From positions 930,001 through 962,000 of the forward strand of contig MGBH01000001.1 in the NCBI GenBank assembly GCA_001790095.1: a stretch of 32,000 bases of DNA, written 5' to 3'. Made by a program: the position numbers and the translations under genes. Numbering within the stretch: position 1 is the first letter of the stretch; each line of letters opens with the position of its first letter. Source of the stretch: Candidatus Saccharimonadota bacterium. GTDB lineage: Bacteria; Patescibacteriota; Microgenomatia; UBA1406; GWC2-37-13. The notes under the pieces are model-generated. The model worked only from the letters and a program-made list of their open reading frames with translations. It did not search any database and was not told the DNA's origin. Below, in pieces: positions 1,066 to 29,900 of the stretch.

Positions 1066-1090
1066 ATAGTAGTTTAAATAATGATTGGCA

Positions 1091-4949: not shown

Positions 4950-7900
4950 ATGATAAAGATAAATACCGACTCTATTTTTCAATTTGTAAAGGCGCTTAAA
5001 AGAAAAAGTGTTCCAAAGAATGAAATTAAGCGCAGGCTTCTTTCTGTGGATAGGTTTATCAAATGGGCTCACCAGAAGAGCTATCTGGCAGATGATACGT
5101 TTAAGCAGATACAAGATGAGATTGCCAAGTTAGCGATTGGAGATCAGAGACTAGAGATTGGTAATCAATTTCCAATCACTAATCGCCAATCGCTAATCTC
5201 TAATTATTCTTTCGGCATCCAGCATTATATTGGTTTTGCTATCATATTTGTCCTCATGGCCATGCTTGGAGCAGGGCTTTATAATCAGTTCTTTAAAAAA
5301 ACACCTACACCGTTTGCATATTCAACTACTCCCCTACAAGGTGCTCGTGTCATTTCATTTCAAGGAAGATTGACTGATAGTTTGGGTAATCCCATCATCG
5401 CCCCCATCGATATCACCTACAATTTTTATACTGCACCATCTGGAGGATCTCCTATCGCCGGCTCTACTCGCGTATGTACGGCCAATCCTGATCAAGATGG
5501 AGTTTTTGCCAATCTCATAGGAGATGACAGCGGTCCTAGCTGTTCAACTCAACTTCCAGCTAACATTTTTACCGAAAATTCTGAAGTATTTCTTGGCGTC
5601 ACGATCGGATCAGAGATAACTGAGATGAGTCCTAGACAACAGATTGCGAACGTAGGATATGCCATGAATGCAGAGACACTTCAAGGCCTGCCTCCTGGCA
5701 CAACCGCATCATCAATTCCATTTATCAGTGCGCAAGGTGACCTGCTTATCGCAGCCTCAACTCCTGGTATACGTTCAACATATACGACAGCAAATTTTGT
5801 TATATCCAGTGCTCAAGCAACTACTATCCAATCAGCAAATGGAGGGGATATTACATTCAACGCAACAGATGGAGGCACACTTCGTTTTAATACTTTTAAT
5901 GGAACTTTAAACGAACGGATGACTATTACTCCCTATGGAAACGTGGGGATAAGCAATACCAATCCACGAGCTTCTCTTGATGTCATAGGAGATGCCTCTC
6001 TTTCAGGCAATCTTGTCTTTAATGGTCTAACCTCTCAGATCAGACAATTAAATGGCGGCAATTTATCTTTTGTTACATCCCCTGGTGGAGATCTTGGAGT
6101 CTCAACCAAAATGACACTCCTTAATAACGGAAATCTTGGTATTGGAACAACTGTTCCTATCTATAAACTTGATGTTGCAGGTGCTGCTTCAATCGCAGGC
6201 AATCTTATGACTGGCGGACAGATGCAGCTCGGAAGATTTGTAGCAGATCCGACAGCAGTTGGATCAGGGTCTATGTACTTTAATACAACAAACAACACTA
6301 TCTACTACTATAACGGAACTGACTGGACACAGGTCGGATCTGGTGGAGGCGGAGGTGACAATGTATGGCAACGGGTACTTGATGGAGTGGTCATACCTAA
6401 AATAGCTGCTGATGCACTTAATCTCGGCAACTCTGCAACAGCCTCAGCTACCGTGCACTTAGCTGGAAAAACAGGAGATAATTCATTTATAAATACGGGT
6501 AATTTTGGCATTGGGACGACAGGACCTGCTATGAAGCTGGATCTTGGAACAGGGTATTCAACAAACAACTCAACATTCAGAACAGGAACATATGAATTAC
6601 AACCATATGCATTAAACAACGCTTTTCTTGCGGAAAATGCTTATTATAACGGTTCTACCTGGACAAGGAGAAATACTGGATATGCCGAAGGATTTCAGTT
6701 TTTTAATGGTCAGACTTTATTCTTCAATAACACCAGTGGAACTGGTAGTTTTTCTGCAACTTATCCGTTCAAGACCGATTCTGGCAACTCCGGATCAGTA
6801 GCTCTCGGAGGAAATATTAATACAGCAACAGGTAATTATAGTGGTTCATCAATGGTTGTTTTAGGTACTGGCAACGTCGGAATTGGCACTACCTCTCCCC
6901 TTGAAAAACTTGATGTCCGTGGTAATGCCACAGTATCTGGATATCTCACGATCGGACAGAGTGGAGCTTTAAGAAGTCAGTATGGTCCTCTTAACTTAGC
7001 ATATAAGTCTGGAGTGAACTCATGGACTACGGGAATGGTGCTTAAGGATGGAAGTGGTAATGTAGGGATTGGAACTACTAATCCAGAAACCAAATTACAT
7101 GTATATACCAGTACCGCAATAGGAACATATCGAGATATTTATGCAAAACAAATTATTGACGATGCAGATGCAAGACTCCAAATTAGATCGGGTGATACGG
7201 GCAACTATGGCTCAGGATTAATTCTCTCAACAGCGGATAAAAGCTGGGCAATGATGGCACAAGCAAGCTCAGATAATAATAATTTTTATATAGGCTATAA
7301 ATCAAGCGCAACCGATGAAGATATAATGGCTGGTTCATCAAAGCACTTTACTATCAATACCTCTGGAAATGTTGGAATCGGGACAACAAATCCCCTTGAA
7401 AAACTTGATGTCCGTGGTAATGCCACAGTATCTGGATATCTCACGATCGGACAGAGTGGAGCTTTAAGAAGTCAGTATGGTCCTCTTAACTTAGCATATA
7501 AGTCTGGAGTGAACTCATGGACTACGGGGATGGTATTGCAGGATAGTACAGGCAATGTTGGAATCGGGACATTAAATCCTACTTCTTTTAAACTTGAGGT
7601 TGCAGGTGACATAGGCCCTGAAGCAGATAATACTCGTGATTTAGGTTCTGCATCACGCTATTGGAATACTATCTACGTAAATAATATCGTGGGAAGTGGA
7701 GCTTTGGGATATTGGCAGATAGATAGTAATGTTCTTCATCCTGCTAATCAATGGGCGTCTGTTGTTGATTTAGCAATTGGTGGAACATCTACTTCATCTG
7801 CTAAATTTCAAGTATACGGAAGTGGTACCAATGCAGGAACAGCATCTTCATCAGGACAACTCACTTTCAACAATAATTCAGGAACGCATTATGTCAACTC

Positions 7901-10900
7901 ACTTTGGAACCGTCCCCTATCCTTCCGCACTTCCCCTGGTGGAGATACAGGACTGACAGATAGATTATATATTGCAGCAAATGGCAATGTGGGAGTGGGG
8001 ACGACAAATCCAGTGGCAAAACTGGATATTAAAGGAACTTTCTCCTCTGAAGTTGGATATTCATCTTACACTGGCGATGGTGTTTGGAATGCAAATGCTC
8101 GACCTTCTAAAATTATTACGCCGAATTTGCATGAATTGCGATTTGGTTACTCTGATGCAGGAGGAGGTCAATATTATCCATCTATCGGTTTTGCAGCAAA
8201 TAGTACTGCCGTAAATGATTCTCTATTAATTCTCCAGTCAAGAGTCGCTTTAGGTACACCAGAATCATACAATCGATGGCAAGTAAGCGGAGGGGGAACA
8301 ATCAGCTGGGGTGCAGGAAGTGGTGCGGTTGATACAAACCTCTATCGCGTTGCAGCTAATATATTAGGCACCGATGACACACTATATGTAGGCGGCAATA
8401 TAGGCATCGGTACAACTTCCCCCCTTGAAAAACTTGATGTCACAGGCAATGCATCTGCCTCAGGATATGTCACGGTCGGACAAGCAGGAGCTTTAAGAAG
8501 TCAATATGGTCCGCTTAATCTTGCATACAAATCAGGATTAAATACCTGGACAACGGGGATGGTGTTAAAGGATGGAACGGGATATGTGGGGATTGGAACA
8601 ATTAATCCAACGTATTTATTAGATGTATCAGGCGGATCTGGAATTGTGGGAAGATTTAGCGGAAGAGTGATTGGAGGCGATGCAGTTGCTTCAAATGAAT
8701 TCGTAACGTTCGGTCAGTTGGCTGGAGGATCAGGACAGTATTGGCAAAGATCAGGAGAAGCTTTATCACCAAGCAATATTTGGAACTCAATAAATGTGGG
8801 AGCAACTGCAACAGCATCTGCTTATGTACATCTTGCAGGTACTCCGAATGAAAACTCATTTGTAAATACAGGAAATTTTGGCATTGGAACTATCTCTCCT
8901 GTTGCTAAACTTGATGTAGTAGGTAATGCAAGCATCTCCGCTTCTTTATCTTATAGAAGTGGAGCCCCAAATTATGTAAATGTATTAGGTAACCAACCTC
9001 TATCATTCCGAACTTCACCAGGAGGTGACGCAGGATTAACTGATAGATTTACTCTCTTGGCAAATGGAAATATAGGTATAGGAACAACAGCGCCTGCTAC
9101 AAAACTTGACATCGACACAAGTTCAAATACAACCGGATTGCGACTTCGCGGATTAGCGGAAACTGTTGAGATATCAGATATCTATGTTGGATCAAATGGC
9201 ACATTCATATTAGATAATACAGTCGGAACAGGTAGTAGTGGATATATTGATCTTCGTCCTGAAGATAATGATTATGGCATGGTCCTTCGTGAATCCGACG
9301 GTACAGGAACAGGCTCATTTGCCAATTTTTATGTCGTTGACGCTGCTACAGACTACATGAATATTATCGTCAATGGAGCTCAATCAACAACAGGATTGGT
9401 TGTAAATGCAAACGGAAATGTGGGGATAAACAATACTTCCCCCCTTGAAAAACTTGATGTCACAGGCAATGCATCTGCCTCAGGATATGTCACGGTCGGA
9501 CAAGCAGGAGCTTTAAGAAGTCAATATGGTCCTCTTAACTTAGCATATAAGTCTGGAGTGAACTCATGGACTACGGGGATGGTTCTTCAGGATGGGACAG
9601 GAAACGTGGGGATTGGGACAACAAATCCAGTGGCAAAATTACAGGTCTATCCTGGATATACCACAGGAACATACAATGGTATCAATGTATCTGGCGGGAC
9701 AACAGGTGGAACTTATAACGCTTTCTCAACGGATGCATTTGTAAACAGTGGAGCTGGAACAGTTACCGGTTTATCGATCACCAGCAGGATACAAAACGCC
9801 GCTACTTCTTCTAATGCATACGGCATTAATGCTACTGTATATAAGGGTAGCGGTTCAACCGGAACGACAACTGCTATTTATGGAGCTAATTTAAGAGTTC
9901 TAAACTCAAGTAGTGATGTTATTACAGATACTTACGGTCTAAAAATAGCTGACATCTCAAATTCCGGAACCATGAGCAATACTTATGGAGTGTATGTAGG
10001 AGACATTACTGCTGGAACCCAAACCAATACCCCATTCTCATTTTATGCATCTGACGCAAACGCATTAAATTACTTTGCTGGAAATGTCGGAATAGGTTCA
10101 TCTGCTCCCACCTCCTTCAAACTTGAGGTTGCAGGTGACATAGGCCCTGATGCTGATGGTACTCGGGATATTGGTTCACCCTCCAGGTACTATGACACCG
10201 TCTATGCAAACAATGTGGTAGGACTTGGTGCTCTGGGATACTGGTCAAGAGGTACGGGCGTATTGTTTCCTTCAACCACCACTGATGGAGTAGCTGCGAC
10301 AGGTTCAGCAACCACCGTTGCAACATTCACCGCCTCAGGGACAAATGATGCAGCACGTTTGGGAGGATCAGCTAACTATATAACCGTATCCCCCAGTGGA
10401 GATCTTTCATTCACCGGAGCTAATGCTGATGCGATCAATAAAGTATCAGGGACGTTAAATATAAACACAACCAATAACCAGGCGATAACTACCGGGACTG
10501 GTCAGGTCACCTTGGCGGGTAATGTGGATGCCACCAACGGACTTGATGTGACTACCGCTAACCTTACGGTTGGAGGAGCAAACTTTACCGTGGTTCCGGG
10601 TACGGGAAATATCACAACAGCGGGTACTGTTTCCATTGCAACCGGTCAATCATACACAGGAGCAGGCACCGTAACCCTCTCCTCTGCTGCTGCATCGAGT
10701 CTTACCATCAACTCAGGAACAACCGGTGCCATAGCTATTGGGAATGATGCATCTGCCGAAACAATTGGTCTGGGTACTGGTGCGGCAGCAAAAACAATAA
10801 CCATAGGCAATACCACAGGCGCAACCGCACTCAATCAACGGGTGGGTACAGGGAACTATACTCTTGACGGAGTTGCTGGATCAACCTATGCGTTTGGTGC

Positions 10901-13900
10901 ATCAACAACCACTGGCACCATGACAATCGGAGGCACAGCACAGACAGGACTTCTCACTTTGGGACAAAGCTCTGGTACCAATATTGTTGCTATTGGATCA
11001 GGTACAGGAGCAACAACCGTACAGATAGCAAACGGCGCAACAAACGGAAAAACAGTACAGATTGCAACAGGAGCTGTTGCAAATACCGTTTCTATGGGAT
11101 CAACCACGGGCGCATCTGCTACTACTCTTAATGCTGGATCAGGGAATCTTACCCTAAATGCCACATCCGGCAATGTAGCACTTCAAACTACTACAGCCGG
11201 AAATATTACCCTTACGCCAGGAGGCACCGGAGACATAAACATCACGGCTGATGCCGACTCATTTGTAAATATTGCAGGCCTCACAGACAGCACTGGCACC
11301 AGTCTTTGTCTTGATGGTTCAAGCAATCTTATTACTTGTGCAGGAGGAGGCACAGGCAATACATTGCAGGCTGCATATGATAATGGAAATACCATCACCA
11401 CAACCACTGCAAGAAATATTGCATTTACTTTAGGAGAAGTTGCAACACCTACTTCCCTTACTCTTGAAAATCAAGACACAGCCGGAACAAATGCGCAGCG
11501 AATCTTTAATTCCATTGCTTCAGGAACATTGACTAATGGACTTCTGGTTGAACAAACAGGAGCGGGTACCATGACCAGCGGAATAAATATAACACAAACC
11601 GCCGGAACTATATCAAGCGGTCTTACTTTCACTGGGATAACCAATGATATTACAACCGGTGCAAACCAACACCTGGCCCTTATGCCAAATGGAACTGGCA
11701 ATGTGGGTATAGGAACAACAAGTCCTGCTTATAACTTAGAGATCGAGGACGTTGGTGATGCTGCGATATATTTAGAAGCTGATTCCGCCGGAACTGGATC
11801 AGAAGATAATAATGCGTTTATTAAACTGAGTCAAGATGGTTTGCTTGTACAATCAATATTTGGAACTGTAGGCAATGCTGGATATGATCCAGAAAATGTC
11901 GCATATACTAATACCTTAGCTAACGCAACACTCCTGGGAACCTTAGACAATAATGGAGCGCTTCAGTTTGGGACAAACGACGCAGTCCGTATGACAATTG
12001 CAGCAACTGGAAACGTAGGTATTGGGACAACTTCTCCCACTCTTTTTAACCTTCAAGTAACAGGCAATATAGGCCCAACTACTACAAACAACTATGATCT
12101 TGGATTAACAGGTACCAGATGGAGAACAGGATATTTTGGAACTTCTCTTGACTCTCCTTCTTTAACCTATGCAGGTACTCTTGCATTGTCTGCAACAGGA
12201 GCAAATATAATAACGATGTCAACCAATGGATCTGAGAGATGGAGAGTTGCATCCAATGGAGTACTTCAGTCAAACGGTGCACAAACCATACAGACCTCAA
12301 CCGGTAATCTTACTCTTGCAACAGCTGCAGGAAACGGACATATACTTCTTTCTCCAAATGGGACGGGAAATGTGGGGGTGGGGACAACAACACCCACATC
12401 TTTCAAACTTGAAGTTGCCGGTAATATCGGACCTGATAGCGATATTACCAGAAATATAGGAGCATACAATAAGCGAATTGCCAATACATACACAGGAGTA
12501 ATTGATGAAAGCATATTTACCCAGGCAGGTGAAAATGCCATCAAGAATTCTGATCGTTACAATGGTGGACCGGGTGGATGGGGTACTGCGGCAAACTATT
12601 CTGAGGCTGTTGTGGTTGGGCCACAAGGAACAGAGGTACGAGCAATTACAAATTCAACTCCATTGAGCACGGCCGGATTATTAACTGATTATTTACCCGT
12701 TGATCCGAAAAAAGCATATCTGCTTGAATACTGGATCAAGCAGGATGACATAAGTGCAGGAACTGGAACAAATTATATTGGACGTGAAGAATATACAAGC
12801 GGTAAAGCTAATAATGACCAGGGAACCGGCCCGTACACGTGGGGCGGTCAAAAACCCCCTGCAGCAAATACATGGTATCATGTATATGGAATTATTCCTC
12901 CGCATGACTCAGGCGCTGAAGTAAGTCACACAGCAACAAACAGTACGATCACTCCTGGAACTGAGTATAAATTTTGGAGTTCATACACTGCCTATATCAG
13001 GGTTAAGATATATTTAAACTACAACCAACCAAATCCTTCACAGGTCTGGGTAACAGGAGTTGCACTTCGTCCCCTTTCAAGTGGCGGTGTTAATTCTTTT
13101 TTTGCTACACCAGGTGATGCCTCAACCTCGGGAAATCTTGCGTTTGTTACTGGGAAAACAGAAAGACTTACCATCACCTCTAACGGTAATGTTGGTATTG
13201 GTACTACTGCTCCTGCTACAGGCGCAAAATTGGATGTATATGGCGGACCTATCCGGCTTGGAGCAAATACTAGTGCAAACAACCAATTAAATACGACCGC
13301 CGGAAGTGCACCATCAGGAGACCTATATTGGGGCTCTCGAACAATCTGTGATGATTCGGGAAACTGCGGCACAGCCGGAGTGTCGCCTGATTCACTAGAC
13401 TATACAGAATTCCTAGATACCATGACTCTTGATGCAAATCTTATCTTGAATCAAACAACCTACACCTGGACGCAGAACTTTACCGGGACAACGACCACGG
13501 GCTACACTTACAATGCTAACTCTCTCACATCAGGTAAAGCTCTTAGTATCGCTTCTTCTGCTACTGCATTTACCGGCACATTAGCGCAAGTTTCTTTAAC
13601 AGGCAATAACGCCGCCAATACGGGTACCATATTTAAAGCATCTTCAAACGGAGCTTTAAATACCGGCACTGTTGCTATGATTACCAATCTGGGAGCCGGA
13701 ACATCATTTAGAGTAAATGATGAGACAGGAGATGCTGACACTACTCCATTTTTAATCGATGCAGGTGGCAATGTAGGAATAGGTACTACTTCACCTGTTT
13801 CTAAACTTCTTCTTGACGATGTTACTCCAACTATAACGGGATGGCAGAGTCTTACCATAAGAAGCACCGATGCTTTAGCTATAGATAAAGGAGGAACAAT

Positions 13901-16900
13901 CGGTTTTGGAGGCAAGTATACCTCAGGAGGCACATATGCAACATGGGCAGGTATAGCTGGATTGAAAGAAAATGCAACAGATTCAAATACTTCAGGATAT
14001 TTATCGCTGCGGACAAGAGCAAACGGAGGAAACCTAACAGAACAAATGAGAATTGCAAGTAACGGCAATGTCGGCATCGGCACTACAAACCCTTCTCTTT
14101 TTAAACTTCAAGTAACAGGCAATATAGGCCCAACTACTACAAACAACTATGATCTTGGATTAACAGGTACCAGATGGAGAACAGGATATTTTGGAACTTC
14201 TCTTGACTCTCCTTCTTTAACCTATGCAGGTACTCTTGCATTGTCTGCAACAGGAGCAAATATAATAACGATGTCAACCAATGGATCTGAGAGATGGAGA
14301 GTTGCATCCAATGGAGTACTTCAGTCAAACGGTGCACAAACCATACAGACCTCAACCGGTAATCTTACTCTTGCAACAGCTGCAGGAAACGGACATATAC
14401 TTCTTTCTCCAAATGGGACGGGAAATGTGGGTATAGGAACGACGGCGCCAAGCAATCCCCTTGCAGTCATCTCTACCACTACTCCTCAGCTTCGTGTTGG
14501 TTATGACAACACAACCAATTACTTCACATCGGCAGTTGCTTCAAACGGATCAGTCACGTTTAACGCTAATGGAGCATCTGCCGCCTTTACTTTTTCAGAT
14601 CCTACTACAATATCCTCAACCGCAAATCCTGGGCTCACTGTAGGTAACGGTACGACGGGTTATCTGAAAATCGGCGGTTCAACCATATCTGATGCTGCAG
14701 GAAACCTCACATTAGATAGTGACAGTGGTACTATCAGCGCTTCAGATATTTTAAACATGGGTTGGAACGCCATAACTGGCGCATGGATAGGAGATGCTGA
14801 TTCTTATGGAGGCGGAGGATATAACAATATCGCAAATCATAACAATAATCTTATCCGAGCGGATGAAAAGGAAACCGTTACCATGAATAATGGTTGTGAT
14901 GCAGGATCAATCGCTAATATGTTTGATGGTGACCCTTCAACTATTTGTCAACTCACTGATGCTGCACCCAATGAGATCATTACTATAGATATGGGAAGCT
15001 ATGAGCATTATTGGACAGGGTTTGAGATCATGTGGACATATGATCGAGGTACTAACAACGTAACAATAGAAAAATACTGGGATCCTGACTCAACAGGTGG
15101 CTGTGATACGTGGGCAACCATTTATAGCGGAGCAGCTACAGGATACTCTACAAAAGTAAATGCGCCAGGCAATTATATATGTCAGTACCGCATCACAATA
15201 ACTGGTACGCCAGATGTTGCAAATGATGTTCGTATCGGAGACATACGAGGGTTCCAATATTATAACGACCAGAAAAATGATCTATATGCCGATATTACCG
15301 GCGCTACTTTTTACGGTGCAGTACAAGTTGGAACATCTACGACGAACAGAGACCTTGATGTATATGGCAATGTCGGCATAGTCTCCAGTAACACCACCGG
15401 TACCACAACCAGTAGTAGTCTTGGTCTTTCTGCCAACTCCCTCACAACCGGAACAGGTTTGTACGCTGCTTCATCTACCCTAACCTCAGGTAAATTAGTA
15501 GATCTTCAGGTGAGTGGGACTGCTGCAGCTGCATCTCAAACAGGACTTAATATTCTAACTGCCGGTGCCAATGGTACTGCGGGTATCACTTCTTATGGTG
15601 CACAAATATCAAATACCCATACAGGTACTACCTCTACTAATGTTGCCCTCTATCTCAATGCCTCAGGGGGTACTACAGCAAACTATGGTTTGATTGTAAA
15701 CGCTGGTAATGTGGGTATCGGAACGACAGCACCGGGAGCAAAACTTGACGTGTATAATCCATCAGGCACCACCCTTGCTTTAGCAGCCCAGGTCCAAAAC
15801 CTTAATAATGCAACTGGTCAAAATGGGCTTCTTGTCAATGTCGCCCGTGTGACTACAGATGATGCCACATACGGACTCAATGTCCAAGGAGGCGGCACAA
15901 GCCGACTTTACGTGAGAGGTGACGGATTTGTGGGTATTGGTACTACCGCCCAATCAGCCAACTGGCCTACTGATCTGCTTTTTATAAACGGTGAATTTAC
16001 TGCTGACAAATTCAATGATTCAGGAAGCAATAACCGCTATATTGATCCCAATGGCACCTCACGAATAAGCTATCTTGAGATGAGAAACGATCTCACCTTT
16101 ATTGACGCCGGCAATGCCGGCATCGGTAAAATCAACTCAAACGGAAGTTCTGTTATTATTGAAGGCCCTACTGGAGGCACAACAGACCTCTGTGTTGAGG
16201 ATCCTGATACTGGAACAGGCGGAGAATGTGACGGTAAAATCGACGCAGGTACCATCGACCCTCCCTACACTATAAATGGGAAAAAATATGCTACATACAT
16301 GGCCTCCATGACAGGGGTCAAAGAAGAAACTACCGATACCGTACATATTGAGTCAAAGATAGCAGAAGGCAGATATGCGTATGTTATTGACTTTAATAAT
16401 CAACCCATTGGATCTGACTTATGGCTTTTTAGTAAAACAACTCATCTTAAAGATAACCTAGATCATATGAGCGTTCTTCTCACTCCAACTGATGATACAC
16501 GGACGTGGTACAAAGTAGATAACACCGGAGATCATCTCACCCTTATTCTTTATTCTTCACGACCAACACAGATATCATATCGACTTACTGCTCCACGCTT
16601 CAATGCTGAAAATTTTGCCAATATTAGACCAGATAATGCTCCTGGCGGATTCTTGATAAACGATCCCGATATCATAGGTTCCCCCTATACTATCACTGAA
16701 GTTGGATCTTTAACCGATACGCATCATATAGCTTCAACTCAACCAACCAATACCTCGCTTGAAAGCTTAAGAGAGACAATATATCAAGTTGTGCACAACA
16801 CAAGCGGAGAAATGATAGAAGAGGTAGCAGTTTTCAACAAAATATTGATAGGTAAAATCCAGGCTGGTTTTGTGGAAGCACAAAATGCTGTTGTGACCAA

Positions 16901-18263
16901 CGTATTAAACGCTTCACATATCGTATCTGAAAATATTTCAAGCTATTCGCTACAAGTCACAAAACTTTTTGTAAACGAAAAGATAATCAGCCCGATCGTT
17001 GAGACTACAGATCTGTCAGCCTCAGGTACTGCAACTCTTGCGACTATAAAGACCGATACCATCAAACCGCAAGAACAAAATGTCACGATAGACCTCAATA
17101 CTTCTTCAGACAAAGGTACATTTGCCAAGCTCATCGTAAACGGTATCAACAATATAACTGTTGCATCTATTGATGAAGCAGGTAACGCTACGTTTGCAGG
17201 CTCCCTGACTAGCGTATCAGTGATCAGTGATCAGCTGTCAGTAAATGATGCAACCATATCAGGAAGTCTAACTGCCAATGAGGCCAGTCTTTCGGGTAAA
17301 CTCATTGCGAAAGAGATTGTATCTGATAATATCAGCGAGCTTACGGAAAGAACCGCCGCGGTTGAGGAGCAAAGCGGGAAAACCGCGGAGGTTAATGAGG
17401 TTTTGAGCAACAGTATTAATCAGGTTCAACAGGATCTTGCGGCGATAAAAAACCTACCTCTCCCTAACCCCGCCTATTATCAAAATTTGAGTGACTACCC
17501 TGTTGCAACTGTTTCTTCACTTCTTGCTCAATCAATTCAGACAGAAGATCTTACTGCGACTGGCAATGTAAACCTTTACAAAGCCTCAATCGCTGATTCC
17601 CTCACGGCCGGAACTATTTTTATGCAGGATAACTCTATCCTCTCTCTTTCATGGGAGCTCAAACTTTCAGCTCTTGCTCAGATCACTCTTTTTGACGGAA
17701 GTGTGGTCATCGCAAAAAATGGAAACATTACTACAAAAGGAGAACTCATCGCTGAGGGAGGAGTCCGGACGGATGAAATACAATCAATCGATGGAAAAAA
17801 AGACATCGCTATCAAACTAAATTCTCAATTGTCAAATTCCAATGAAAATTCATTGAAAAATGCAAAATTGAAAATTGAAAATTCCGAAGGCATGGATGTT
17901 GCCTCAATCGATGCCTCAGGCGCAGCCCGTCTCAACAGTTTAGCCTTCACTCATATATCTACCAACTCTGCTATCATTGCTGATTCAGGAGAACGCACTG
18001 TGGATGATGAAATCATCCCGGCTATTGAAACCAATGCTGAGGTGGCAGGTACCGGAGTCCTGCCCGTGGATGCACCGGAGATTATAATATACAATAATAG
18101 TGTTACGGCAGATTCTCTCATCTATCTGACTCCGATTGGTGAAACGCCAATCAATCAGCTCACGGTTGTGAAAAAGGAGATACATGGCCGTCCATATTTC
18201 TCAGTCTCATCCGGTACTACTCTCCATCCAGAGATCAAGTTTAATTGGTTGATTATAAACTAG
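4950..18263 (+). CDS. Giant (4437 aa) N-terminally membrane-anchored surface protein with tail-fibre-like repeats and lectin-like modules
   Basis: A single uninterrupted ORF. About 90 aa form a cytoplasmic head, followed by one TM helix (YIGFAIIFVLMAMLGAGLYNQFF, ~5226-5290). By my count there are about 25 copies of the motif GNVGIGTTxPxxKLDV/KLEV, often followed by G(D/N)IGPxxDxTRDLGSxSxRW. That signature is typical of phage tail-fibre-domain proteins. The protein also contains a G/T/A-rich beta-helix-like tract (~10260-11300), a CBM-like module, a discoidin-like module and a long C-terminal stalk. Confidence 0.9.
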   Translation: MIKINTDSIFQFVKALKRKSVPKNEIKRRLLSVDRFIKWAHQKSYLADDTFKQIQDEIAKLAIGDQRLEIGNQFPITNRQSLISNYSFGIQHYIGFAIIFVLMAMLGAGLYNQFFKKTPTPFAYSTTPLQGARVISFQGRLTDSLGNPIIAPIDITYNFYTAPSGGSPIAGSTRVCTANPDQDGVFANLIGDDSGPSCSTQLPANIFTENSEVFLGVTIGSEITEMSPRQQIANVGYAMNAETLQGLPPGTTASSIPFISAQGDLLIAASTPGIRSTYTTANFVISSAQATTIQSANGGDITFNATDGGTLRFNTFNGTLNERMTITPYGNVGISNTNPRASLDVIGDASLSGNLVFNGLTSQIRQLNGGNLSFVTSPGGDLGVSTKMTLLNNGNLGIGTTVPIYKLDVAGAASIAGNLMTGGQMQLGRFVADPTAVGSGSMYFNTTNNTIYYYNGTDWTQVGSGGGGGDNVWQRVLDGVVIPKIAADALNLGNSATASATVHLAGKTGDNSFINTGNFGIGTTGPAMKLDLGTGYSTNNSTFRTGTYELQPYALNNAFLAENAYYNGSTWTRRNTGYAEGFQFFNGQTLFFNNTSGTGSFSATYPFKTDSGNSGSVALGGNINTATGNYSGSSMVVLGTGNVGIGTTSPLEKLDVRGNATVSGYLTIGQSGALRSQYGPLNLAYKSGVNSWTTGMVLKDGSGNVGIGTTNPETKLHVYTSTAIGTYRDIYAKQIIDDADARLQIRSGDTGNYGSGLILSTADKSWAMMAQASSDNNNFYIGYKSSATDEDIMAGSSKHFTINTSGNVGIGTTNPLEKLDVRGNATVSGYLTIGQSGALRSQYGPLNLAYKSGVNSWTTGMVLQDSTGNVGIGTLNPTSFKLEVAGDIGPEADNTRDLGSASRYWNTIYVNNIVGSGALGYWQIDSNVLHPANQWASVVDLAIGGTSTSSAKFQVYGSGTNAGTASSSGQLTFNNNSGTHYVNSLWNRPLSFRTSPGGDTGLTDRLYIAANGNVGVGTTNPVAKLDIKGTFSSEVGYSSYTGDGVWNANARPSKIITPNLHELRFGYSDAGGGQYYPSIGFAANSTAVNDSLLILQSRVALGTPESYNRWQVSGGGTISWGAGSGAVDTNLYRVAANILGTDDTLYVGGNIGIGTTSPLEKLDVTGNASASGYVTVGQAGALRSQYGPLNLAYKSGLNTWTTGMVLKDGTGYVGIGTINPTYLLDVSGGSGIVGRFSGRVIGGDAVASNEFVTFGQLAGGSGQYWQRSGEALSPSNIWNSINVGATATASAYVHLAGTPNENSFVNTGNFGIGTISPVAKLDVVGNASISASLSYRSGAPNYVNVLGNQPLSFRTSPGGDAGLTDRFTLLANGNIGIGTTAPATKLDIDTSSNTTGLRLRGLAETVEISDIYVGSNGTFILDNTVGTGSSGYIDLRPEDNDYGMVLRESDGTGTGSFANFYVVDAATDYMNIIVNGAQSTTGLVVNANGNVGINNTSPLEKLDVTGNASASGYVTVGQAGALRSQYGPLNLAYKSGVNSWTTGMVLQDGTGNVGIGTTNPVAKLQVYPGYTTGTYNGINVSGGTTGGTYNAFSTDAFVNSGAGTVTGLSITSRIQNAATSSNAYGINATVYKGSGSTGTTTAIYGANLRVLNSSSDVITDTYGLKIADISNSGTMSNTYGVYVGDITAGTQTNTPFSFYASDANALNYFAGNVGIGSSAPTSFKLEVAGDIGPDADGTRDIGSPSRYYDTVYANNVVGLGALGYWSRGTGVLFPSTTTDGVAATGSATTVATFTASGTNDAARLGGSANYITVSPSGDLSFTGANADAINKVSGTLNINTTNNQAITTGTGQVTLAGNVDATNGLDVTTANLTVGGANFTVVPGTGNITTAGTVSIATGQSYTGAGTVTLSSAAASSLTINSGTTGAIAIGNDASAETIGLGTGAAAKTITIGNTTGATALNQRVGTGNYTLDGVAGSTYAFGASTTTGTMTIGGTAQTGLLTLGQSSGTNIVAIGSGTGATTVQIANGATNGKTVQIATGAVANTVSMGSTTGASATTLNAGSGNLTLNATSGNVALQTTTAGNITLTPGGTGDINITADADSFVNIAGLTDSTGTSLCLDGSSNLITCAGGGTGNTLQAAYDNGNTITTTTARNIAFTLGEVATPTSLTLENQDTAGTNAQRIFNSIASGTLTNGLLVEQTGAGTMTSGINITQTAGTISSGLTFTGITNDITTGANQHLALMPNGTGNVGIGTTSPAYNLEIEDVGDAAIYLEADSAGTGSEDNNAFIKLSQDGLLVQSIFGTVGNAGYDPENVAYTNTLANATLLGTLDNNGALQFGTNDAVRMTIAATGNVGIGTTSPTLFNLQVTGNIGPTTTNNYDLGLTGTRWRTGYFGTSLDSPSLTYAGTLALSATGANIITMSTNGSERWRVASNGVLQSNGAQTIQTSTGNLTLATAAGNGHILLSPNGTGNVGVGTTTPTSFKLEVAGNIGPDSDITRNIGAYNKRIANTYTGVIDESIFTQAGENAIKNSDRYNGGPGGWGTAANYSEAVVVGPQGTEVRAITNSTPLSTAGLLTDYLPVDPKKAYLLEYWIKQDDISAGTGTNYIGREEYTSGKANNDQGTGPYTWGGQKPPAANTWYHVYGIIPPHDSGAEVSHTATNSTITPGTEYKFWSSYTAYIRVKIYLNYNQPNPSQVWVTGVALRPLSSGGVNSFFATPGDASTSGNLAFVTGKTERLTITSNGNVGIGTTAPATGAKLDVYGGPIRLGANTSANNQLNTTAGSAPSGDLYWGSRTICDDSGNCGTAGVSPDSLDYTEFLDTMTLDANLILNQTTYTWTQNFTGTTTTGYTYNANSLTSGKALSIASSATAFTGTLAQVSLTGNNAANTGTIFKASSNGALNTGTVAMITNLGAGTSFRVNDETGDADTTPFLIDAGGNVGIGTTSPVSKLLLDDVTPTITGWQSLTIRSTDALAIDKGGTIGFGGKYTSGGTYATWAGIAGLKENATDSNTSGYLSLRTRANGGNLTEQMRIASNGNVGIGTTNPSLFKLQVTGNIGPTTTNNYDLGLTGTRWRTGYFGTSLDSPSLTYAGTLALSATGANIITMSTNGSERWRVASNGVLQSNGAQTIQTSTGNLTLATAAGNGHILLSPNGTGNVGIGTTAPSNPLAVISTTTPQLRVGYDNTTNYFTSAVASNGSVTFNANGASAAFTFSDPTTISSTANPGLTVGNGTTGYLKIGGSTISDAAGNLTLDSDSGTISASDILNMGWNAITGAWIGDADSYGGGGYNNIANHNNNLIRADEKETVTMNNGCDAGSIANMFDGDPSTICQLTDAAPNEIITIDMGSYEHYWTGFEIMWTYDRGTNNVTIEKYWDPDSTGGCDTWATIYSGAATGYSTKVNAPGNYICQYRITITGTPDVANDVRIGDIRGFQYYNDQKNDLYADITGATFYGAVQVGTSTTNRDLDVYGNVGIVSSNTTGTTTSSSLGLSANSLTTGTGLYAASSTLTSGKLVDLQVSGTAAAASQTGLNILTAGANGTAGITSYGAQISNTHTGTTSTNVALYLNASGGTTANYGLIVNAGNVGIGTTAPGAKLDVYNPSGTTLALAAQVQNLNNATGQNGLLVNVARVTTDDATYGLNVQGGGTSRLYVRGDGFVGIGTTAQSANWPTDLLFINGEFTADKFNDSGSNNRYIDPNGTSRISYLEMRNDLTFIDAGNAGIGKINSNGSSVIIEGPTGGTTDLCVEDPDTGTGGECDGKIDAGTIDPPYTINGKKYATYMASMTGVKEETTDTVHIESKIAEGRYAYVIDFNNQPIGSDLWLFSKTTHLKDNLDHMSVLLTPTDDTRTWYKVDNTGDHLTLILYSSRPTQISYRLTAPRFNAENFANIRPDNAPGGFLINDPDIIGSPYTITEVGSLTDTHHIASTQPTNTSLESLRETIYQVVHNTSGEMIEEVAVFNKILIGKIQAGFVEAQNAVVTNVLNASHIVSENISSYSLQVTKLFVNEKIISPIVETTDLSASGTATLATIKTDTIKPQEQNVTIDLNTSSDKGTFAKLIVNGINNITVASIDEAGNATFAGSLTSVSVISDQLSVNDATISGSLTANEASLSGKLIAKEIVSDNISELTERTAAVEEQSGKTAEVNEVLSNSINQVQQDLAAIKNLPLPNPAYYQNLSDYPVATVSSLLAQSIQTEDLTATGNVNLYKASIADSLTAGTIFMQDNSILSLSWELKLSALAQITLFDGSVVIAKNGNITTKGELIAEGGVRTDEIQSIDGKKDIAIKLNSQLSNSNENSLKNAKLKIENSEGMDVASIDASGAARLNSLAFTHISTNSAIIADSGERTVDDEIIPAIETNAEVAGTGVLPVDAPEIIIYNNSVTADSLIYLTPIGETPINQLTVVKKEIHGRPYFSVSSGTTLHPEIKFNWLIIN
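5161..5206 (+). repeat. Degenerate heptanucleotide array (CYAATCN-type units) inside the cytoplasmic head of the giant ORF
   Basis: Units read as gtaatca(5161-5167) ... ccaatca(5172-5178) ctaatcg(5179-5185) ccaatcg(5186-5192) ctaatct(5193-5199) ctaatta(5200-5206). The region is translated as GNQFPITNRQSLISNY. Confidence 0.7.
6896..7033 (+). repeat. Cassette copy 1 (138-bp perfect direct repeat with 7391-7528)
   Basis: Compared base by base, with an offset of 495 nt (165 codons). It encodes SPLEKLDVRGNATVSGYLTIGQSGALRSQYGPLNLAYKSGVNSWTTG. Flanks diverge immediately on both sides. Confidence 0.95.
7391..7528 (+). repeat. Cassette copy 2 (138-bp perfect direct repeat with 6896-7033)
   Basis: See copy 1. 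The two are identical over 138 bp. Confidence 0.95.
8415..8512 (+). repeat. Cassette copy 3 (98-bp perfect direct repeat with 9435-9532)
   Basis: The offset is 1020 nt (340 codons). It encodes SPLEKLDVTGNASASGYVTVGQAGALRSQYGP. This is a variant of the same cassette as copies 1 and 2. Confidence 0.95.
9435..9583 (+). repeat. Cassette copy 4, mosaic: 5' part identical to copy 3, 3' part identical to copy 2
   Basis: 9435-9532 is identical to 8415-8512. 9525-9583 is identical to 7476-7534 (59 bp), whereas copy 3 differs there (ccgcttaatcttgcatacaaatcagg). The crossover falls within the shared tatggtcc. Confidence 0.9.
12051..12376 (+). repeat. 326-bp perfect direct repeat, copy A (with 14106-14431)
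   Basis: The offset is 2055 nt (685 codons). Identity was checked line by line and is supported by the identical antisense ORFs 12082..12300 and 14137..14355 in the track. It encodes LQVTGNIGPTTTNNYDLGLTGTRWRTGYFGTSLDSPSLTYAGTLALSATGANIITMSTNGSERWRVASNGVLQSNGAQTIQTSTGNLTLATAAGNGHILLSPNGTGNVG. Confidence 0.97.
12531..13075 (+). other. CBM4_9-like / jelly-roll carbohydrate-binding module within the giant protein
   Basis: The stretch ENAIKNSDRYNGGPGGWGTAANYSEAVVVGPQGTEVRAI...DPKKAYLLEYWIKQDD...NTWYHVYGIIPP...YIRVKIYLNY...VWVTGVALRP breaks the fibre-repeat pattern. It has the W / sG..v / Y.l..W.k / W..v spacing of CBM-type sandwiches. Recognition is by eye. Confidence 0.4.
14106..14431 (+). repeat. 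326-bp perfect direct repeat, copy B
   Basis: See copy A. There is one mismatch at 12050/14105 and the next at 12377/14432. Flanking sequence is clearly diverged. Confidence 0.97.
14821..15265 (+). other. F5/8 type C (discoidin/CBM32)-like module within the giant protein
   Basis: The stretch AGSIANMFDGDPSTICQL...EIITIDMGSYEHYWTGFEIMWTYDRGTNNVTIEKYW...CDTWATIYSG...YRITITG fits the a.n.fDGd..T.W...i.iDLG....i..i.i.W pattern of discoidin domains. Confidence 0.5.
17832..17883 (+). repeat. Copy of the dispersed heptamer-based module, in-frame in the giant ORF (SNSNENSLKNAKLKIEN)
   Basis: tcaaattccaatga (17832-17845) is 14/14 identical to the reverse complement of 28628-28641. aaattcattgaaaaatgcaaaattgaaaattgaaaatt (17846-17883) matches the reverse complement of 28575-28612 at 36/38. 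Confidence 0.9.
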
Positions 18264-25884: not shown

Positions 25885-25907
25885 TACTCCCTACTTTCTA
25901 CTATCTA

Positions 25908-27002: not shown

Positions 27003-28322
27003 TTATACCATTTTTGCCAGGATTCGTTCGATAGCTACCTCAAACGCTGCCTGTTTAAGCGGCAGTTTTTTTGCCACTGATTTCTTCCAGATGATATCAA
27101 GAGCCTCTTCCATCATTTTTTTCAGCCTTTTGTTTACTTTTTCCTCCCTCCACGTCTCACCTTTCATGTTTTGATACCATTCAAGGTAGGATACAGTCAC
27201 TCCTCCACTGTTTGCCAACACATCAGGTACGATCACAACTCCTTGTTTTGTAAGATATTCATAGGCTTCCTCAGTCACCGGTCCGTTTGCCATCTCAACA
27301 ACTATCTTTGCTTTAATTTTCTTCATGTTTTGTGCATTTATTACATTTTCAAGCGCTGCAGGAACCAATATATCTACAGGAAGTTCTAGTAACTCCTCAT
27401 TAGATATTGTTTTTCCGTATGCTATATTACATACTGATCCTTTGCAGTAACAGCCAGCTACGCTTCCTTTTTCTTTTTTACATTTTAAGGTTGCATCCAC
27501 ATCAAGTCCTTCTTTCACATAGACTCCCCCCTTTGAATCGGAAAGAGCTACGATCGTAAATTTTTCTTCTTCTGCAAGACGAGCAAAATAGTACCCCACA
27601 TTTCCAAATCCCTGCACTGCAATTTTCAATGATTGTGTATTGGAATTTGCCTGTGATTTGTGGTTTGTGGTTTGAGTTTTGAGTTTTGAAAGCAGAGCTT
27701 TTAATATTATAACCCCTCCTCTTCCCGTAGCCTCTGTTCGACCCAACGTACCTCCTAAATCAAGCGGCTTCCCGGTAAAAGTAGCCCATAACTGGCTTTT
27801 CGTATAATGGGTTTTTCTTGCCTGTTGAATCTTCACATACTCATCCACCATCCATCTCATGATCTGCGGATTAGTGTTGACATCGGGAGCTGGCACATCA
27901 TACTCTGGTCCAACAAAGGACGAAATCGCACGAGCATATGCTCTTGATATTCGTTCAAGCTCGCCCCCAGACACTGTCTTGGGATCAAAGATCACTCCTC
28001 CCTTGCCTCCACCGTACGGAATACCTGCTACTGCACATTTTATCGTCATGAGTGTTGCTAGGGCTCTTACCTCATCTCTGTTTACATTGGGGTGGAATCG
28101 AATTCCCCCTTTATAAGGGCCAAGGGCGTTATTATGCTCTATCCTATAGGCGGTAAATATTTTTTCTGTTCCATCATCCATAGTCACTGAAAAATGCAAT
28201 TCATGTACTGCATCAGATTCAAGAAGCCTGTCTATCGTTGCATCCGGAAGTTTGAGACCCTTTGCCGTTTTAGTTATAACCCCAAGAGCCGACTCGAGCA
28301 TTTTTTTGCCAGTGTTGGACAT
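27003..28322 (-). CDS. gdhA: Glutamate dehydrogenase (Glu/Leu/Phe/Val dehydrogenase family)
   Basis: It has the catalytic-Lys motif GPYKGGIRFHP, then GIPYGGGKGG and DVPAPDVNT, and the Rossmann motif VQGFGNVGYYFA. The stop lies 12 nt before the M23 gene start. Confidence 0.9.
   Translation of the reverse strand: MSNTGKKMLESALGVITKTAKGLKLPDATIDRLLESDAVHELHFSVTMDDGTEKIFTAYRIEHNNALGPYKGGIRFHPNVNRDEVRALATLMTIKCAVAGIPYGGGKGGVIFDPKTVSGGELERISRAYARAISSFVGPEYDVPAPDVNTNPQIMRWMVDEYVKIQQARKTHYTKSQLWATFTGKPLDLGGTLGRTEATGRGGVIILKALLSKLKTQTTNHKSQANSNTQSLKIAVQGFGNVGYYFARLAEEEKFTIVALSDSKGGVYVKEGLDVDATLKCKKEKGSVAGCYCKGSVCNIAYGKTISNEELLELPVDILVPAALENVINAQNMKKIKAKIVVEMANGPVTEEAYEYLTKQGVVIVPDVLANSGGVTVSYLEWYQNMKGETWREEKVNKRLKKMMEEALDIIWKKSVAKKLPLKQAAFEVAIERILAKMV
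27618..27688 (-). repeat. Heptamer-based module in-frame in gdh (KTQTTNHKSQANSNTQSLKIA)
   Basis: On the plus strand, tgcaattttcaatga (27618-27632) is 15/15 identical to 28594-28608 in trxB, and attggaatttg (27639-27649) is 11/11 identical to 28630-28640. Five tandem heptads follow: tgatttg tggtttg tggtttg agttttg agttttg (27654-27688). Confidence 0.85.
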
Positions 28323-28416: not shown

Positions 28417-29478
28417 TCAAACTTCTGAATTTGCTTCTAACCAGTTTTCAACATCTAAAGCCGCACCCACACCCATACCAGCAGCTACAGCTGCCTGACG
28501 ATAAATATGATCGACACAATCTCCAGCTGCAAATACACCCCTGACAGATGTTGCGGTTTGATAATCCATATCAAAATTTTCAGTTTTCAATTTTGCAATT
28601 TTCAATGAATTTTCAGTTTTTAATTGATCATTGGAATTTGATTGATAATTGGATCTTGATAATTGAAAATTAATAAGTGCTGCTCGCTGTGTTGTCACTA
28701 TATAGCCTTTATCATCAAATTTAACCATATCTTTAAATAAATCCGTATCTGGTTTATGGCCGATAGCAACGAACAGCCCGTCAATTTTTAATTGTCGGTC
28801 GGTTGAAACTAGCTGAGAACTGATTTCAGCCGATTTCAACCGTACTCCTTCTACTCTGTTTTGTCCTAAGACTTCTTCAATCGTACTGTTCCATATAATC
28901 TCAATTTTGGTATTTTCTTTTACCCGCTTTTGCATTATTTTGGATGCACGGAAATCCGAACGTCTGTGGATAATAAACACTTTTGATGCGAACTTAGTGA
29001 GAGTAAGAGCTTCTTCAAGCGCTGTATCTCCACCACCAGCCACACCAACTATTTTGTTTTTGAAGAAAAATCCATCGCAGGTTGCACATGCAGAGACTCC
29101 CTTACCTCGCAGTCGCTGTTCGCTGGCAAGTCCAAGCCATAATGCTTTTGCGCCTGTTGCGATGATAACGGATTTGGTTTTAATCGCTTGAACCAGTTTG
29201 TCTGATTGATCAAATTTGACCAGCTGTACATTTTCATCGATGATATGTGCGCCGAACTTTACGGCTTGTTTGCGCATCTTGTCAATAAGTTCTGAGCCAA
29301 GAATATTTTCATGTCCGGGATAGTTTTCCACTTCAGATGTAAGCACCAACTGTCCTCCTGGCGGAGATCCTGCATATATGATAGGTGCAAGGCCCGCTCG
29401 CCCCAGATATATTCCAGCAGATAATCCAGCAGCCCCTCCCCCTATGATAACTACGTCTTTTAGATCTGACTGTTTCAT
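28417..29478 (-). CDS. trxB: Thioredoxin-disulfide reductase carrying an internal insertion
   Basis: It has the FAD motif VVIIGGGAAGLSAG, the redox-active CATCDG, the NADPH motif GVAGGGDTALEEA...HRRSDFRA, and C-terminal GVFAAGDCVDHIYRQAAVAAGMG. At 353 aa it is longer than the ~310-320 aa usual for the family. Confidence 0.92.
   Translation of the reverse strand: MKQSDLKDVVIIGGGAAGLSAGIYLGRAGLAPIIYAGSPPGGQLVLTSEVENYPGHENILGSELIDKMRKQAVKFGAHIIDENVQLVKFDQSDKLVQAIKTKSVIIATGAKALWLGLASEQRLRGKGVSACATCDGFFFKNKIVGVAGGGDTALEEALTLTKFASKVFIIHRRSDFRASKIMQKRVKENTKIEIIWNSTIEEVLGQNRVEGVRLKSAEISSQLVSTDRQLKIDGLFVAIGHKPDTDLFKDMVKFDDKGYIVTTQRAALINFQLSRSNYQSNSNDQLKTENSLKIAKLKTENFDMDYQTATSVRGVFAAGDCVDHIYRQAAVAAGMGVGAALDVENWLEANSEV
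28566..28680 (-). repeat. Heptamer-based palindromic module in-frame in trxB, about 115 nt
   Basis: Heptads attgata attggat cttgata attgaaa attaata lie at 28641-28675, and TGAAAAY-type units lie at 28575-28612. An internal inverted repeat CAATGA...TCATTG is present. The module is stop-free in the coding frame and translates to INFQLSRSNYQSNSNDQLKTENSLKIAKLKTENFDMDY. Confidence 0.85.
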
Positions 29479-29792: not shown

Positions 29793-29840
29793 CCCCCCTA
29801 TACTCAGTACTAGTATAGAGTATACAATATTAAATTTCAA
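29793..29840 (-). promoter_or_regulatory. Promoter plus candidate CsoR-family operator for the csoR-like/trxB operon
   Basis: On the minus strand, TTGAAA (plus 29835-29840) is followed by a 17-nt spacer and TATACT (plus 29812-29817). The inverted repeat CTATACT(29798-29804)-N7-AGTATAG(29812-29818) overlaps the -10 element. It abuts a C6/G6 tract (29793-29798), the G/C tract flanked by AT-rich arms typical of CsoR/RcnR operators. Confidence 0.5.
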
Positions 29841-29900
29841 GTATCAATTCTCAATTTTCAAACAATTGCCAATTTGGCAAATGAGAATCGAAAATTATCC
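29841..29900. repeat. Intergenic low-complexity segment related to the heptamer module, with a 15-nt palindrome
   Basis: attctcaatt (29847-29856) is identical to 17821-17830 next to the giant-gene copy. aattttc and gaaaatt motifs are present. The perfect palindrome TTGCCAAtTTGGCAA lies at 29866-29880. Confidence 0.6.

What the first reader, a model, noticed from the sequence alone, without database searches (positions are those of the whole stretch)
17815..17890. Third in-frame copy of the module in the stalk of the giant protein, on the opposite strand to the trxB and gdh copies
17832-17883 matches the reverse complement of the trxB module, apart from a 15-nt segment present only in trxB (28613-28627). 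It translates to SNSNENSLKNAKLKIEN.

The flanking attctcaatt (17821-17830) recurs in the intergenic copy at 29847-29856. In this copy CAATGA-aaat-TCATTG forms a tight hairpin.

Sharing between a surface protein and cytoplasmic enzymes excludes a functional protein motif as the explanation. It points to a DNA-level element.
Basis: seen in the sequence. Interest (0 to 1): 0.55.

Follow-up and report, generated by a model that had tools for sequence, protein, structure and literature searches.

The report
Small palindromic repeat inside protein genes

Summary
Window 17820-17886 belongs to a dispersed repeat of about 65-105 nt: (CAATTAT)n, CAAATTCCAAT, a loop of 0-23 nt, then TCATTGAAAAWTGCAAAAYTGAAAAYTGAAAATT.

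The source is Candidatus Roizmanbacteria RIFOXYB2_FULL_38_10. I found six copies within 20 kb of 48 kb of contiguous genome.
- Four are in frame in genes: the giant protein, GDH, TrxB and TGT.
- Two fill intergenic spacers of an ABC-transporter operon.

"Opposite strand" is trivial. Every coding copy is sense to its host and in the same frame, and that frame is the only one of six without stop codons.

In TrxB, GDH and TGT the copies sit where solved structures have no matching residues. The closest syntenic relative lacks the module in TrxB and GDH.

Related copies in other CPR genomes are mostly intergenic and lie in both orientations. One is translated antisense inside a prepilin peptidase.

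A 44-nt block (17843-17886) is identical in a homologue only 43% identical in protein.

Caveats:
- The last 19 nt encode KLKIEN, a conserved strand of the giant protein's C-terminal domain.
- Hairpin stability is not above shuffles.
- No transposase or target-site duplication was found.

Best reading: an RPE-like, non-autonomous selfish DNA element. I found no description of it in CPR in the paper library searched.

The parts
17820..17886 (+). Giant-protein copy of the repeat, a short-loop variant. It holds a degenerate left arm (17820-17832), the core CAAATTCCAAT (17833-17843), the small hairpin CAATGA-aaat-TCATTG (17840-17855) and the right arm (17850-17883). It reads in frame as NSQLSNSNENSLKNAKLKIENS.
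17843..17886 (+). A 44-nt block identical to the homologous site of a protein only 43% identical, from another metagenome (locus L092). The inner 31 nt are also identical in locus L094.
17865..17883 (+). The end of the right arm, AAATTGAAAATTGAAAATT. It encodes KLKIEN, which coincides with the conserved strand preceding xGxEVASIDASGSA in the C-terminal domain family.
4950..18263 (+). Host ORF of 4437 aa, the giant surface-type protein. Its last ~287 aa form a conserved C-terminal domain (551 cluster representatives at E <= 0.001, no Pfam match).
28570..28673 (-). TrxB copy, the most complete coding copy in the window (~104 nt). It reads in frame as NFQLSRSNYQSNSNDQLKTENSLKIAKLKTENFD. It shares 78 nt at 88% identity with the intergenic ABC2 copy.
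27618..27649 (-). GDH copy, short or decayed: CAAATTCCAAT-acacaa-TCATTGAAAATTGCA, reading ANSNTQSLKIA. The last ATTGCA is native GDH sequence (IAVQG).
27650..27689 (-). Direct heptads (AAACTCA x2, AACCACA x2, AATCACA) just upstream of the GDH copy. They are part of the ~13-aa insertion relative to the closest orthologue.
29825..29885 (.). Intergenic heptad-rich imperfect palindrome between the Bac_transf and CsoR-like genes. It is only a weak match to the family (10-15 nt), so it is a distant relative or a separate family.

Best explanation
The segment is one copy of a small, non-autonomous, A/T-rich repeat built from inverted heptads. The layout is a left arm (CAATTAT)n-CAAATTCCAAT, a variable loop, and a right arm TCATTGAAAAWTGCAAAAYTGAAAAYTGAAAATT. 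The repeat has spread at the DNA level through this Roizmanbacteria genome and through other CPR lineages.

Copies land, or are copied, both between genes and inside genes. Inside genes, only copies in the single stop-free frame and orientation, and in permissive surface loops or linkers, survive. This is why the giant protein, GDH, TrxB and TGT all carry the same N/S/K/L-rich peptide (..NSN..NSLK..KLK.EN).

In the giant protein the element occupies the variable linker of the conserved C-terminal domain. Its right arm supplies, or has merged with, the conserved KLKIEN strand.

**Shown:** dispersal; homology of the copies; coding and non-coding locations; insertion relative to solved structures and to the closest relative; the frame explanation; nucleotide identity across species.

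**Inferred:** that the element is selfish and neutral; that it moves. The enzyme or recombination route is unknown. One possibility is copying into sites that resemble its own arms, because in GDH (ATTGCA) and in the giant protein (AAATTGAAAATTGAAAAT) the junction coincides with native look-alike sequence.
For: **Copies in the source genome.** Six copies lie within 20 kb of 48 kb of contiguous genome, with pairwise matches of up to 78 nt at 88%.
- Two are intergenic. One fills the spacer between two ABC2 genes. One lies between ABC_tran and the next gene.
- All coding copies use the only open frame of the six.

**Insertion relative to solved structures.**
- TrxB residues 264-307 correspond to about 3 residues in 5uth.
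- GDH has about 11 extra residues against 8zmu.
- TGT residues 188-225 correspond to 8 residues in 10fb.

**Empty sites.** The closest syntenic relative (L091; GDH 75% identical) lacks the module in both TrxB and GDH.

**Insertion hotspots.** The same GDH loop and TrxB loops carry unrelated insert families in other Microgenomates.

**Relatives in other CPR genomes.**
- Related copies are mostly outside ORFs and lie in both orientations relative to flanking genes.
- Two Nealsonbacteria copies of ~132 nt have sharp ends and an 11-nt terminal inverted repeat.
- One copy is translated antisense inside a prepilin peptidase.

**Nucleotide identity.** 44 of 44 nt are identical with L092 although flanking DNA has diverged. 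31 nt are identical in three divergent homologues, while the neighbouring conserved motif uses varied codons.

**Protein model.** In the AlphaFold model of TrxB the core is confident (mean pLDDT 87.9). The module part (about residues 281-300) is low-confidence (58-67).
Against: - No transposase was found in the 48 kb.
- No target-site duplication is recognisable.
- No presence/absence polymorphism was seen among near-identical strains.
- Folding energies are not better than shuffles for most copies.
- In the giant protein the segment has the same length as the linker of the closest homologue, so it is a replacement and not a clear insertion.
- The KLKIEN part is a conserved protein feature, so that part of the DNA match could be maintained by protein-level selection.
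- The genome-wide copy number could not be measured. The source genome is in neither scannable collection.
Confidence: 0.7

Rival explanations
1. The sequence arose locally by slippage. Native A/T-rich coding sequence that is already heptad-like (KLKIEN = AAATTGA AAATTGA AAAT in the giant protein; SKLK = ..AAACTCA.. in GDH) expanded by replication slippage. The copies then look alike because of compositional and stop-codon constraints, not because DNA moved between loci.
For: - 7-nt tandem arrays are common in the window.
- In GDH the insert begins with a duplication of the native heptad AAACTCA.
- Perfect heptad translations (ENFQFSIFNFQ) occur in TrxB orthologues.
- KLKIEN is native to the C-terminal domain family.
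Against: - Non-periodic parts are shared too: CAAATTCCAATGA, TTCATTGAAAAWTGCAAAA, and the loop between trxB and the ABC2 spacer. The matches reach 39/41, 78 nt at 88%, and 44/44 across organisms. Convergence cannot produce that.
- The Nealsonbacteria copies have sharp boundaries.
Confidence: 0.12
2. The element is a functional nucleic-acid signal that is kept because it is useful. Candidates are an mRNA hairpin that stabilises or punctuates operon transcripts (as REP/BIME does), a protein-binding array of TGAAAAT heptads, or a recombination hotspot that lets giant surface proteins swap their C-terminal domain.
For: - A 44-nt block shows 100% nucleotide conservation between divergent homologues.
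- Both intergenic copies in the source genome lie inside an operon, in sense orientation.
- The L010 copy sits between rplB and rpsS.
- The ABC_tran spacer copy folds better than shuffles (z = -2.6).
Against: - There is no Rfam match.
- Most copies do not fold better than shuffles.
- Intergenic copies in other genomes lie in both orientations.
- The heptads are not over-represented outside the copies.
- The copies differ in loop and arm length.
Confidence: 0.13
3. It is a shared peptide module, such as a linker or small beta-hairpin, selected at the protein level and moved between genes by recombination.
For: - The same frame and a similar peptide (NSLK..KLK.EN) occur in four proteins here and in TrxB and GDH of other species.
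- The alternating L/I-K pattern looks like a strand.
Against: - Non-coding copies exist.
- One copy is translated antisense in a peptidase.
- The other five frames carry stops, so the shared frame needs no protein-level selection.
- The module part of the TrxB model has low confidence.
- The close relative lacks it in both TrxB and GDH.
Confidence: 0.05

Closest known systems
Rickettsia palindromic elements (RPE; Ogata et al. 2000, as summarised in PMC10969869)
   Same: A small palindromic dispersed repeat found both between genes and in frame inside unrelated housekeeping genes. It has one conserved open frame encoding a conserved peptide. Insertions fall where the host protein tolerates them.
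   Different: A different phylum (CPR/Microgenomates rather than Alphaproteobacteria) and an unrelated sequence. It is shorter (about 65-105 nt here and ~132 nt in Nealsonbacteria, against ~150 bp). It is built from 7-nt units. Several unrelated insert families share the same loops in orthologues.
Bacterial MITEs
   Same: Small and non-coding by origin, with inverted arms and multiple dispersed copies. The Nealsonbacteria copies have sharp ends and an 11-nt terminal inverted repeat.
   Different: No target-site duplication and no parent insertion sequence with matching ends were found. The arms in the source-genome copies are imperfect.
REP/REPIN elements with RAYT (Y1) transposases (PMC3116915)
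   Same: Short imperfect palindromes that often lie in transcribed intergenic spacers of operons.
   Different: REPs are extragenic. No Y1 transposase lies in the 48 kb. The Y1_Tnp gene in the related locus L089 is flanked by a different, GC-rich palindrome.
Cyanobacterial heptamer repeats (STRR) and small dispersed repeats (Elhai et al. 2008; cited from my own knowledge and via PMC3116915, since the paper itself was not readable here). TAACTGA repeats of Beggiatoaceae (PMC4679880; seen here only as a title and abstract excerpt)
   Same: A 7-nt unit architecture, with a small conserved core embedded in heptad arrays. Heptad arrays also lie just upstream of genes (window 1090-1118).
   Different: Different heptads and different taxa. 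As far as I know, in-frame occupation of enzyme loops is not the hallmark of those repeats.

Membership tests
RPE (Rickettsia palindromic elements) | Dispersed palindromic repeat with copies inserted in frame in unrelated ORFs | tested here: met
   Four in-frame copies (giant protein, GDH, TrxB, TGT) and two intergenic copies.
RPE (Rickettsia palindromic elements) | Sequence membership in RPE-1..10 and occurrence in Rickettsia | tested here: not met
   The host is Candidatus Roizmanbacteria. This is an analogue, not a member.
MITE | Terminal inverted repeats | tested here: inconclusive
   The arms are inverted heptads but imperfect in the source genome. An 11-nt perfect terminal inverted repeat, AATTTTCAATT/AATTGAAAATT, is present in the Nealsonbacteria copies.
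MITE | Target-site duplication | tested here: not met
   No duplication is recognisable at the ends of the six copies or of L010/L019. The ends are fuzzy in coding copies, so the test is weak.
MITE | Autonomous parent element with matching ends | not testable with these tools
   Only 48 kb of the 1.22-Mb genome could be read. No transposase lies in it.
REP/REPIN-RAYT | Extragenic location | tested here: not met
   Four of the six copies are inside ORFs.
REP/REPIN-RAYT | Cognate Y1 (RAYT) gene flanked by the repeat | tested here: not met
   There is none in the 48 kb. The Y1_Tnp gene in L089 is flanked by CCAGGTTCTGTCCTTGG palindromes instead.
Known structured RNA (Rfam) | Match to a covariance model at gathering score | tested here: not met
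   0 matches in the window.
Heptamer tandem repeats (STRR-like) | Arrays of 7-nt units | tested here: met
   TRF reports period-7 arrays at 17852-17883, 28575-28606, 28641-28676, 27652-27689 and elsewhere. The sequence relation to the cyanobacterial STRR families was not tested.

The most novel reading that the evidence does not exclude
CPR (Patescibacteria) genomes may harbour a previously undescribed class of heptad-built palindromic mobile elements, in several families (A/T-rich and GC-rich). These would routinely colonise the same permissive loops of essential enzymes (TrxB, GDH, TGT) and the C-terminal domain of giant surface proteins. They would insert without a classical transposase, by copying into sites that resemble their own arms. 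They would then account for much of the length variation of CPR proteins. The 44-nt block conserved at the nucleotide level could double as a recombination point for exchanging surface-protein termini.
Probability: 0.3. Interest if true: 0.72.

Novelty: new variant of a known kind. Interest (0 to 1): 0.55.

Why it matters
If this holds genome-wide, selfish palindromic DNA that lives inside protein-coding genes would no longer be a Rickettsia oddity. It would also occur in the largest uncultivated bacterial radiation.

- It would explain why CPR orthologues of core enzymes differ by 0 to more than 60 residues at fixed loops.
- It would give a practical warning for annotating, aligning and modelling CPR proteins, because low-complexity inserts there are DNA parasites and not domains.
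- It would offer natural markers of permissive insertion sites in TrxB, GDH and TGT.
- The unknown mobilisation route, with no transposase or target duplication seen, is an open mechanistic question.

Tried and rejected
- **Genome-contig scan** with a two-arm pattern. The source genome is not in the collection. Most of the 62 hits are single chance-level matches. Only the CPR hits, and a few from other lineages, were informative.
- **Metagenome-contig scan**. It gave 19 hits and none from the source population, so no genome-wide census was possible.
- **Module-peptide profile** as a protein query. The first attempt was too short. The second found only 5 candidates and 2 weak hits. The word index is unsuited to short low-complexity queries.
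- **Viral-contig scan** for the right arm. No hits.
- **Strain comparison** of L001, L002, L003 and of L087, L088. No polymorphism at module sites.
- **Uptake-signal idea.** The heptads are not over-represented outside the copies, so I rejected it.
- **Replication-oriented (Y1/IS200-type) insertion.** Copies lie on both strands within 20 kb and follow gene direction, and no Y1 gene is nearby, so this is not supported.
- **Hairpin as a strong structure.** Not supported by the z-scores.
- **Look-up of ORF 103-1065** failed because the gene call differs.
- **Elhai et al. 2008** could not be read.
- **Literature searches** for a CPR description of such elements returned nothing relevant.

Full report
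**Origin of the window**

The TrxB protein of the window occurs, identical, on NCBI contig MGBF01000001.1 (1,216,931 bp, assembly GCA_001790045.1). Window position x corresponds to record position 930000+x. A source names the organism Candidatus Roizmanbacteria bacterium RIFOXYB2_FULL_38_10, a member of the Microgenomates within the CPR. The same sequence is present in independent ENA and JGI assemblies, so it is not an assembly artefact. By joining loci L088, the window and L002, I obtained 48,356 bp of contiguous genome.

**The observation**

- The match between 17843-17883 and the reverse complement of 28575-28615 is 39 of 41 nt.
- Shuffle controls rule out chance: 4 hits against 0.27 expected for the 15-mer, and 7 against 0.12 for the 19-mer.
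- The giant ORF is on the + strand, while trxB and gdh are on the - strand. So the "opposite strand" is simply the sense strand of each host.
- All three copies are read in the same frame: NSN...SLK(I/N)A.

**More copies**

A blastn search with the full trxB element found three further copies just beyond the right edge of the window. Positions are given as window-equivalent coordinates.
- One fills the spacer between two ABC2 membrane-protein genes (33094-33192). It is non-coding and matches the trxB copy over 78 nt at 88%.
- One lies between the ABC_tran gene and the next gene (34958-35040).
- One is in frame in tRNA-guanine transglycosylase (38001-38071), read as NDQLKIENSLKNEN.

The six-copy alignment gives this anatomy: (CAATTAT)n, CAAATTCCAAT, a loop of 0-23 nt, then TCATTGAAAAWTGCAAAAYTGAAAAYTGAAAATT. 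The giant copy is a short-loop variant. There are no copies in the 26 kb to the left of 17.8 kb.

**Why the frame is shared**

Translating each copy in all six frames shows that only the "SLK" frame is free of stop codons. This holds even for the non-coding ABC2 spacer copy. The other sense frames and the antisense frames carry 1-5 stops in the full-length copies. Any copy that survives inside a gene must therefore be sense and in this frame. The shared peptide needs no protein-level explanation.

**Insertions in tolerant places**

Compared with solved structures:
- TrxB residues 264-307 face about 3 residues of 5uth.
- GDH has about 11 extra residues just before the GxGxxG strand of 8zmu.
- TGT residues 188-225 face 8 residues of 10fb.

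The AlphaFold model of TrxB is confident overall (mean pLDDT 87.9). The module part, about residues 281-300, scores 58-67.

The closest syntenic relative available (L091; GDH 75% identical) lacks the module in both genes. Its GDH reads SKLKIK-QATIAVQG and its TrxB reads ..ARAGWELMKNQEVKKTLFNTTYQT.

Across 120 Microgenomates GDH orthologues this one loop varies from 0 to more than 60 residues and carries at least three unrelated insert types:
- A/T-rich heptad peptides, such as NSKFEILNSKQTLNPNFKNLQNSLKIRNLKLKI.
- A GC-rich type, FLASELAS..GPVAPRSS..GSLRRSLAQT.
- A type reading VIPNLFRDL..QML.QVQHD.

The GC-rich type also sits at two other sites in TrxB orthologues. These loops are recurrent landing places.

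**Relatives elsewhere**

The two collection scans did not contain the source genome. They did return family-like copies from Nealsonbacteria, Paceibacterota, Parcubacteria, Microgenomates and Saccharibacteria contigs.
- Most lie outside ORFs and in both orientations relative to flanking genes.
- Two Nealsonbacteria copies share about 132 nt with sharp ends and an 11-nt terminal inverted repeat, without an obvious target duplication. One sits between rplB and rpsS.
- In L073 a family member is read antisense as QAIFNEFSINWLFNNWNLIVNWILKIG, exactly between the A24_N_bact and Peptidase_A24 domains of a prepilin peptidase. The same DNA therefore gives a different peptide in a different host.

**The giant-protein copy itself**

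The last 287 residues of the giant protein form a conserved C-terminal domain. It has 551 cluster representatives at E <= 0.001 and no Pfam match. In 102 homologues the stretch between ..TNEIxPI..D..V.L and xGxEVASIDASGSA is a variable linker, but it ends in a conserved strand, KL(K/Q)IxN.
- The last 19 nt of the module (KLKIEN) therefore coincide with native protein sequence.
- The closest homologue (P0244, 67% identical) has a linker of the same length, LNSQLPISNDQRPSTNT. Here the element looks like a replacement patch and not a net insertion.
- At the DNA level, 17843-17886 (44 nt) is identical to the same site of P0272, which is 43% identical in protein and comes from another metagenome. 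The flanks there have diverged.
- 31 nt are identical in three divergent homologues, although the adjacent conserved GDEVASIDASG motif uses varied codons.
- P0253 carries a long left arm of CAATGAT/CAATTAT heptads at this site.

The site is therefore repeatedly occupied or homogenised by the element family. In GDH the junction likewise coincides with native ATTGCA. This hints at copying into sites that resemble the element's own arms. That is inference only.

**What was not found**
- No transposase lies in the 48 kb.
- A Y1 transposase in the related locus L089 is flanked by a different palindrome.
- There is no target duplication.
- There is no strain polymorphism at module sites.
- There is no Rfam match.
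- The heptads are not enriched outside the copies.
- Folding energies are not above shuffles, except for one intergenic copy.

**Comparison with known systems**

The closest analogue is the Rickettsia palindromic element, which inserts in frame into unrelated genes and carries a conserved ORF (PMC10969869). This family behaves like an RPE but is not one: the taxon, the size and the heptad construction all differ. MITE membership is unproven, because no target duplication or parent element was found. REP/RAYT membership fails, because copies are intragenic and no cognate Y1 gene was seen. Full-text searches found no description of such elements in CPR. The library is incomplete, so this is not proof of novelty.

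**Verdict**

It is best classed as a new variant of a known kind of selfish, protein-coding palindromic repeat. Interest is moderate, at 0.55. It would be higher if a genome-wide census and a mobilisation mechanism confirmed a CPR-wide phenomenon.

Noticed in passing
window 5130-5196: A different heptad-built imperfect palindrome (arms of 31 nt, 81% complementary). It lies in frame in the N-terminal cytoplasmic part of the giant ORF, just before the predicted membrane helix. Unlike the module, it folds far better than shuffles (DNA z = -6.4).
   Followed up: partly
window 1090-1118, 25885-25913, 17216-17234: Perfect or near-perfect 7-nt tandem arrays. (AGTTAGT)x4 ends 5 nt before the ATG of ORF 1123. 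CTACTAT repeats lie just after the bAvd-like gene. ATCAGTG repeats lie inside the giant ORF. They recall the heptamer repeats upstream of genes in cyanobacteria and Beggiatoaceae.
   Followed up: no
window 25585-25884 (+); also L092 4763-5194 and L089 10329-11600: A bAvd / 23S_rRNA_IVP four-helix-bundle gene recurs next to giant surface-protein genes in three different CPR loci. No reverse transcriptase was seen in the window.
   Followed up: no
L088 1104-1185 (record 922226-922307, between rplA and rplK): A GC-rich 82-nt palindrome, GTCATTCCCGCGAAGGCGGGAATC...GGATCCCGGCCTCCGCCGGGATGAC. Peptides that look like translations of this kind of element (VIPNLFRDL..QML.QVQHD) occur as in-frame inserts in GDH orthologues. 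The link was not checked at DNA level.
   Followed up: partly
TrxB and GDH orthologues (P0006, P0009, P0033, P0075; P0200, P0238): A second, GC-rich in-frame insert family (FLASELAS..G(P/S)VAPRSS..GSLRRSLAQT). It is found at two different TrxB sites and at the GDH loop in different Microgenomates.
   Followed up: partly
L087 versus L088 (giant gene); L003 versus L002 position 1630: Population variants. In another assembly the giant protein is 4769 aa instead of 4437 aa (a 996-nt indel in the repeat region, plus a patch of clustered substitutions). In one JGI contig a 7-nt deletion (GATGAGG) splits the TGT gene.
   Followed up: partly
L089 7505-8230: A Y1_Tnp (IS200/RAYT-like) gene 1 kb downstream of gdh in a syntenic relative. 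It is flanked by CCAGGTTCTGTCCTTGG perfect palindromes, which looks like a REP/RAYT-type system in CPR.
   Followed up: partly
window 17400-18260 (last 287 aa of the giant ORF): A conserved C-terminal domain shared by hundreds of large CPR proteins (551 cluster representatives at E <= 0.001, 109 at E <= 1e-30). It has no Pfam family.
   Followed up: partly
window 4217-4762: A short ORF (181 aa) with only the N-terminal SAM-like domain of a phage integrase, directly upstream of the giant gene.
   Followed up: no
L063 around 1900-1950: The surface-type protein that carries a family copy reads ..ITGQCVTGDTLLPIL.. just before it. This resembles the N-terminal splicing motif of an intein. It was not checked.
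   Followed up: no
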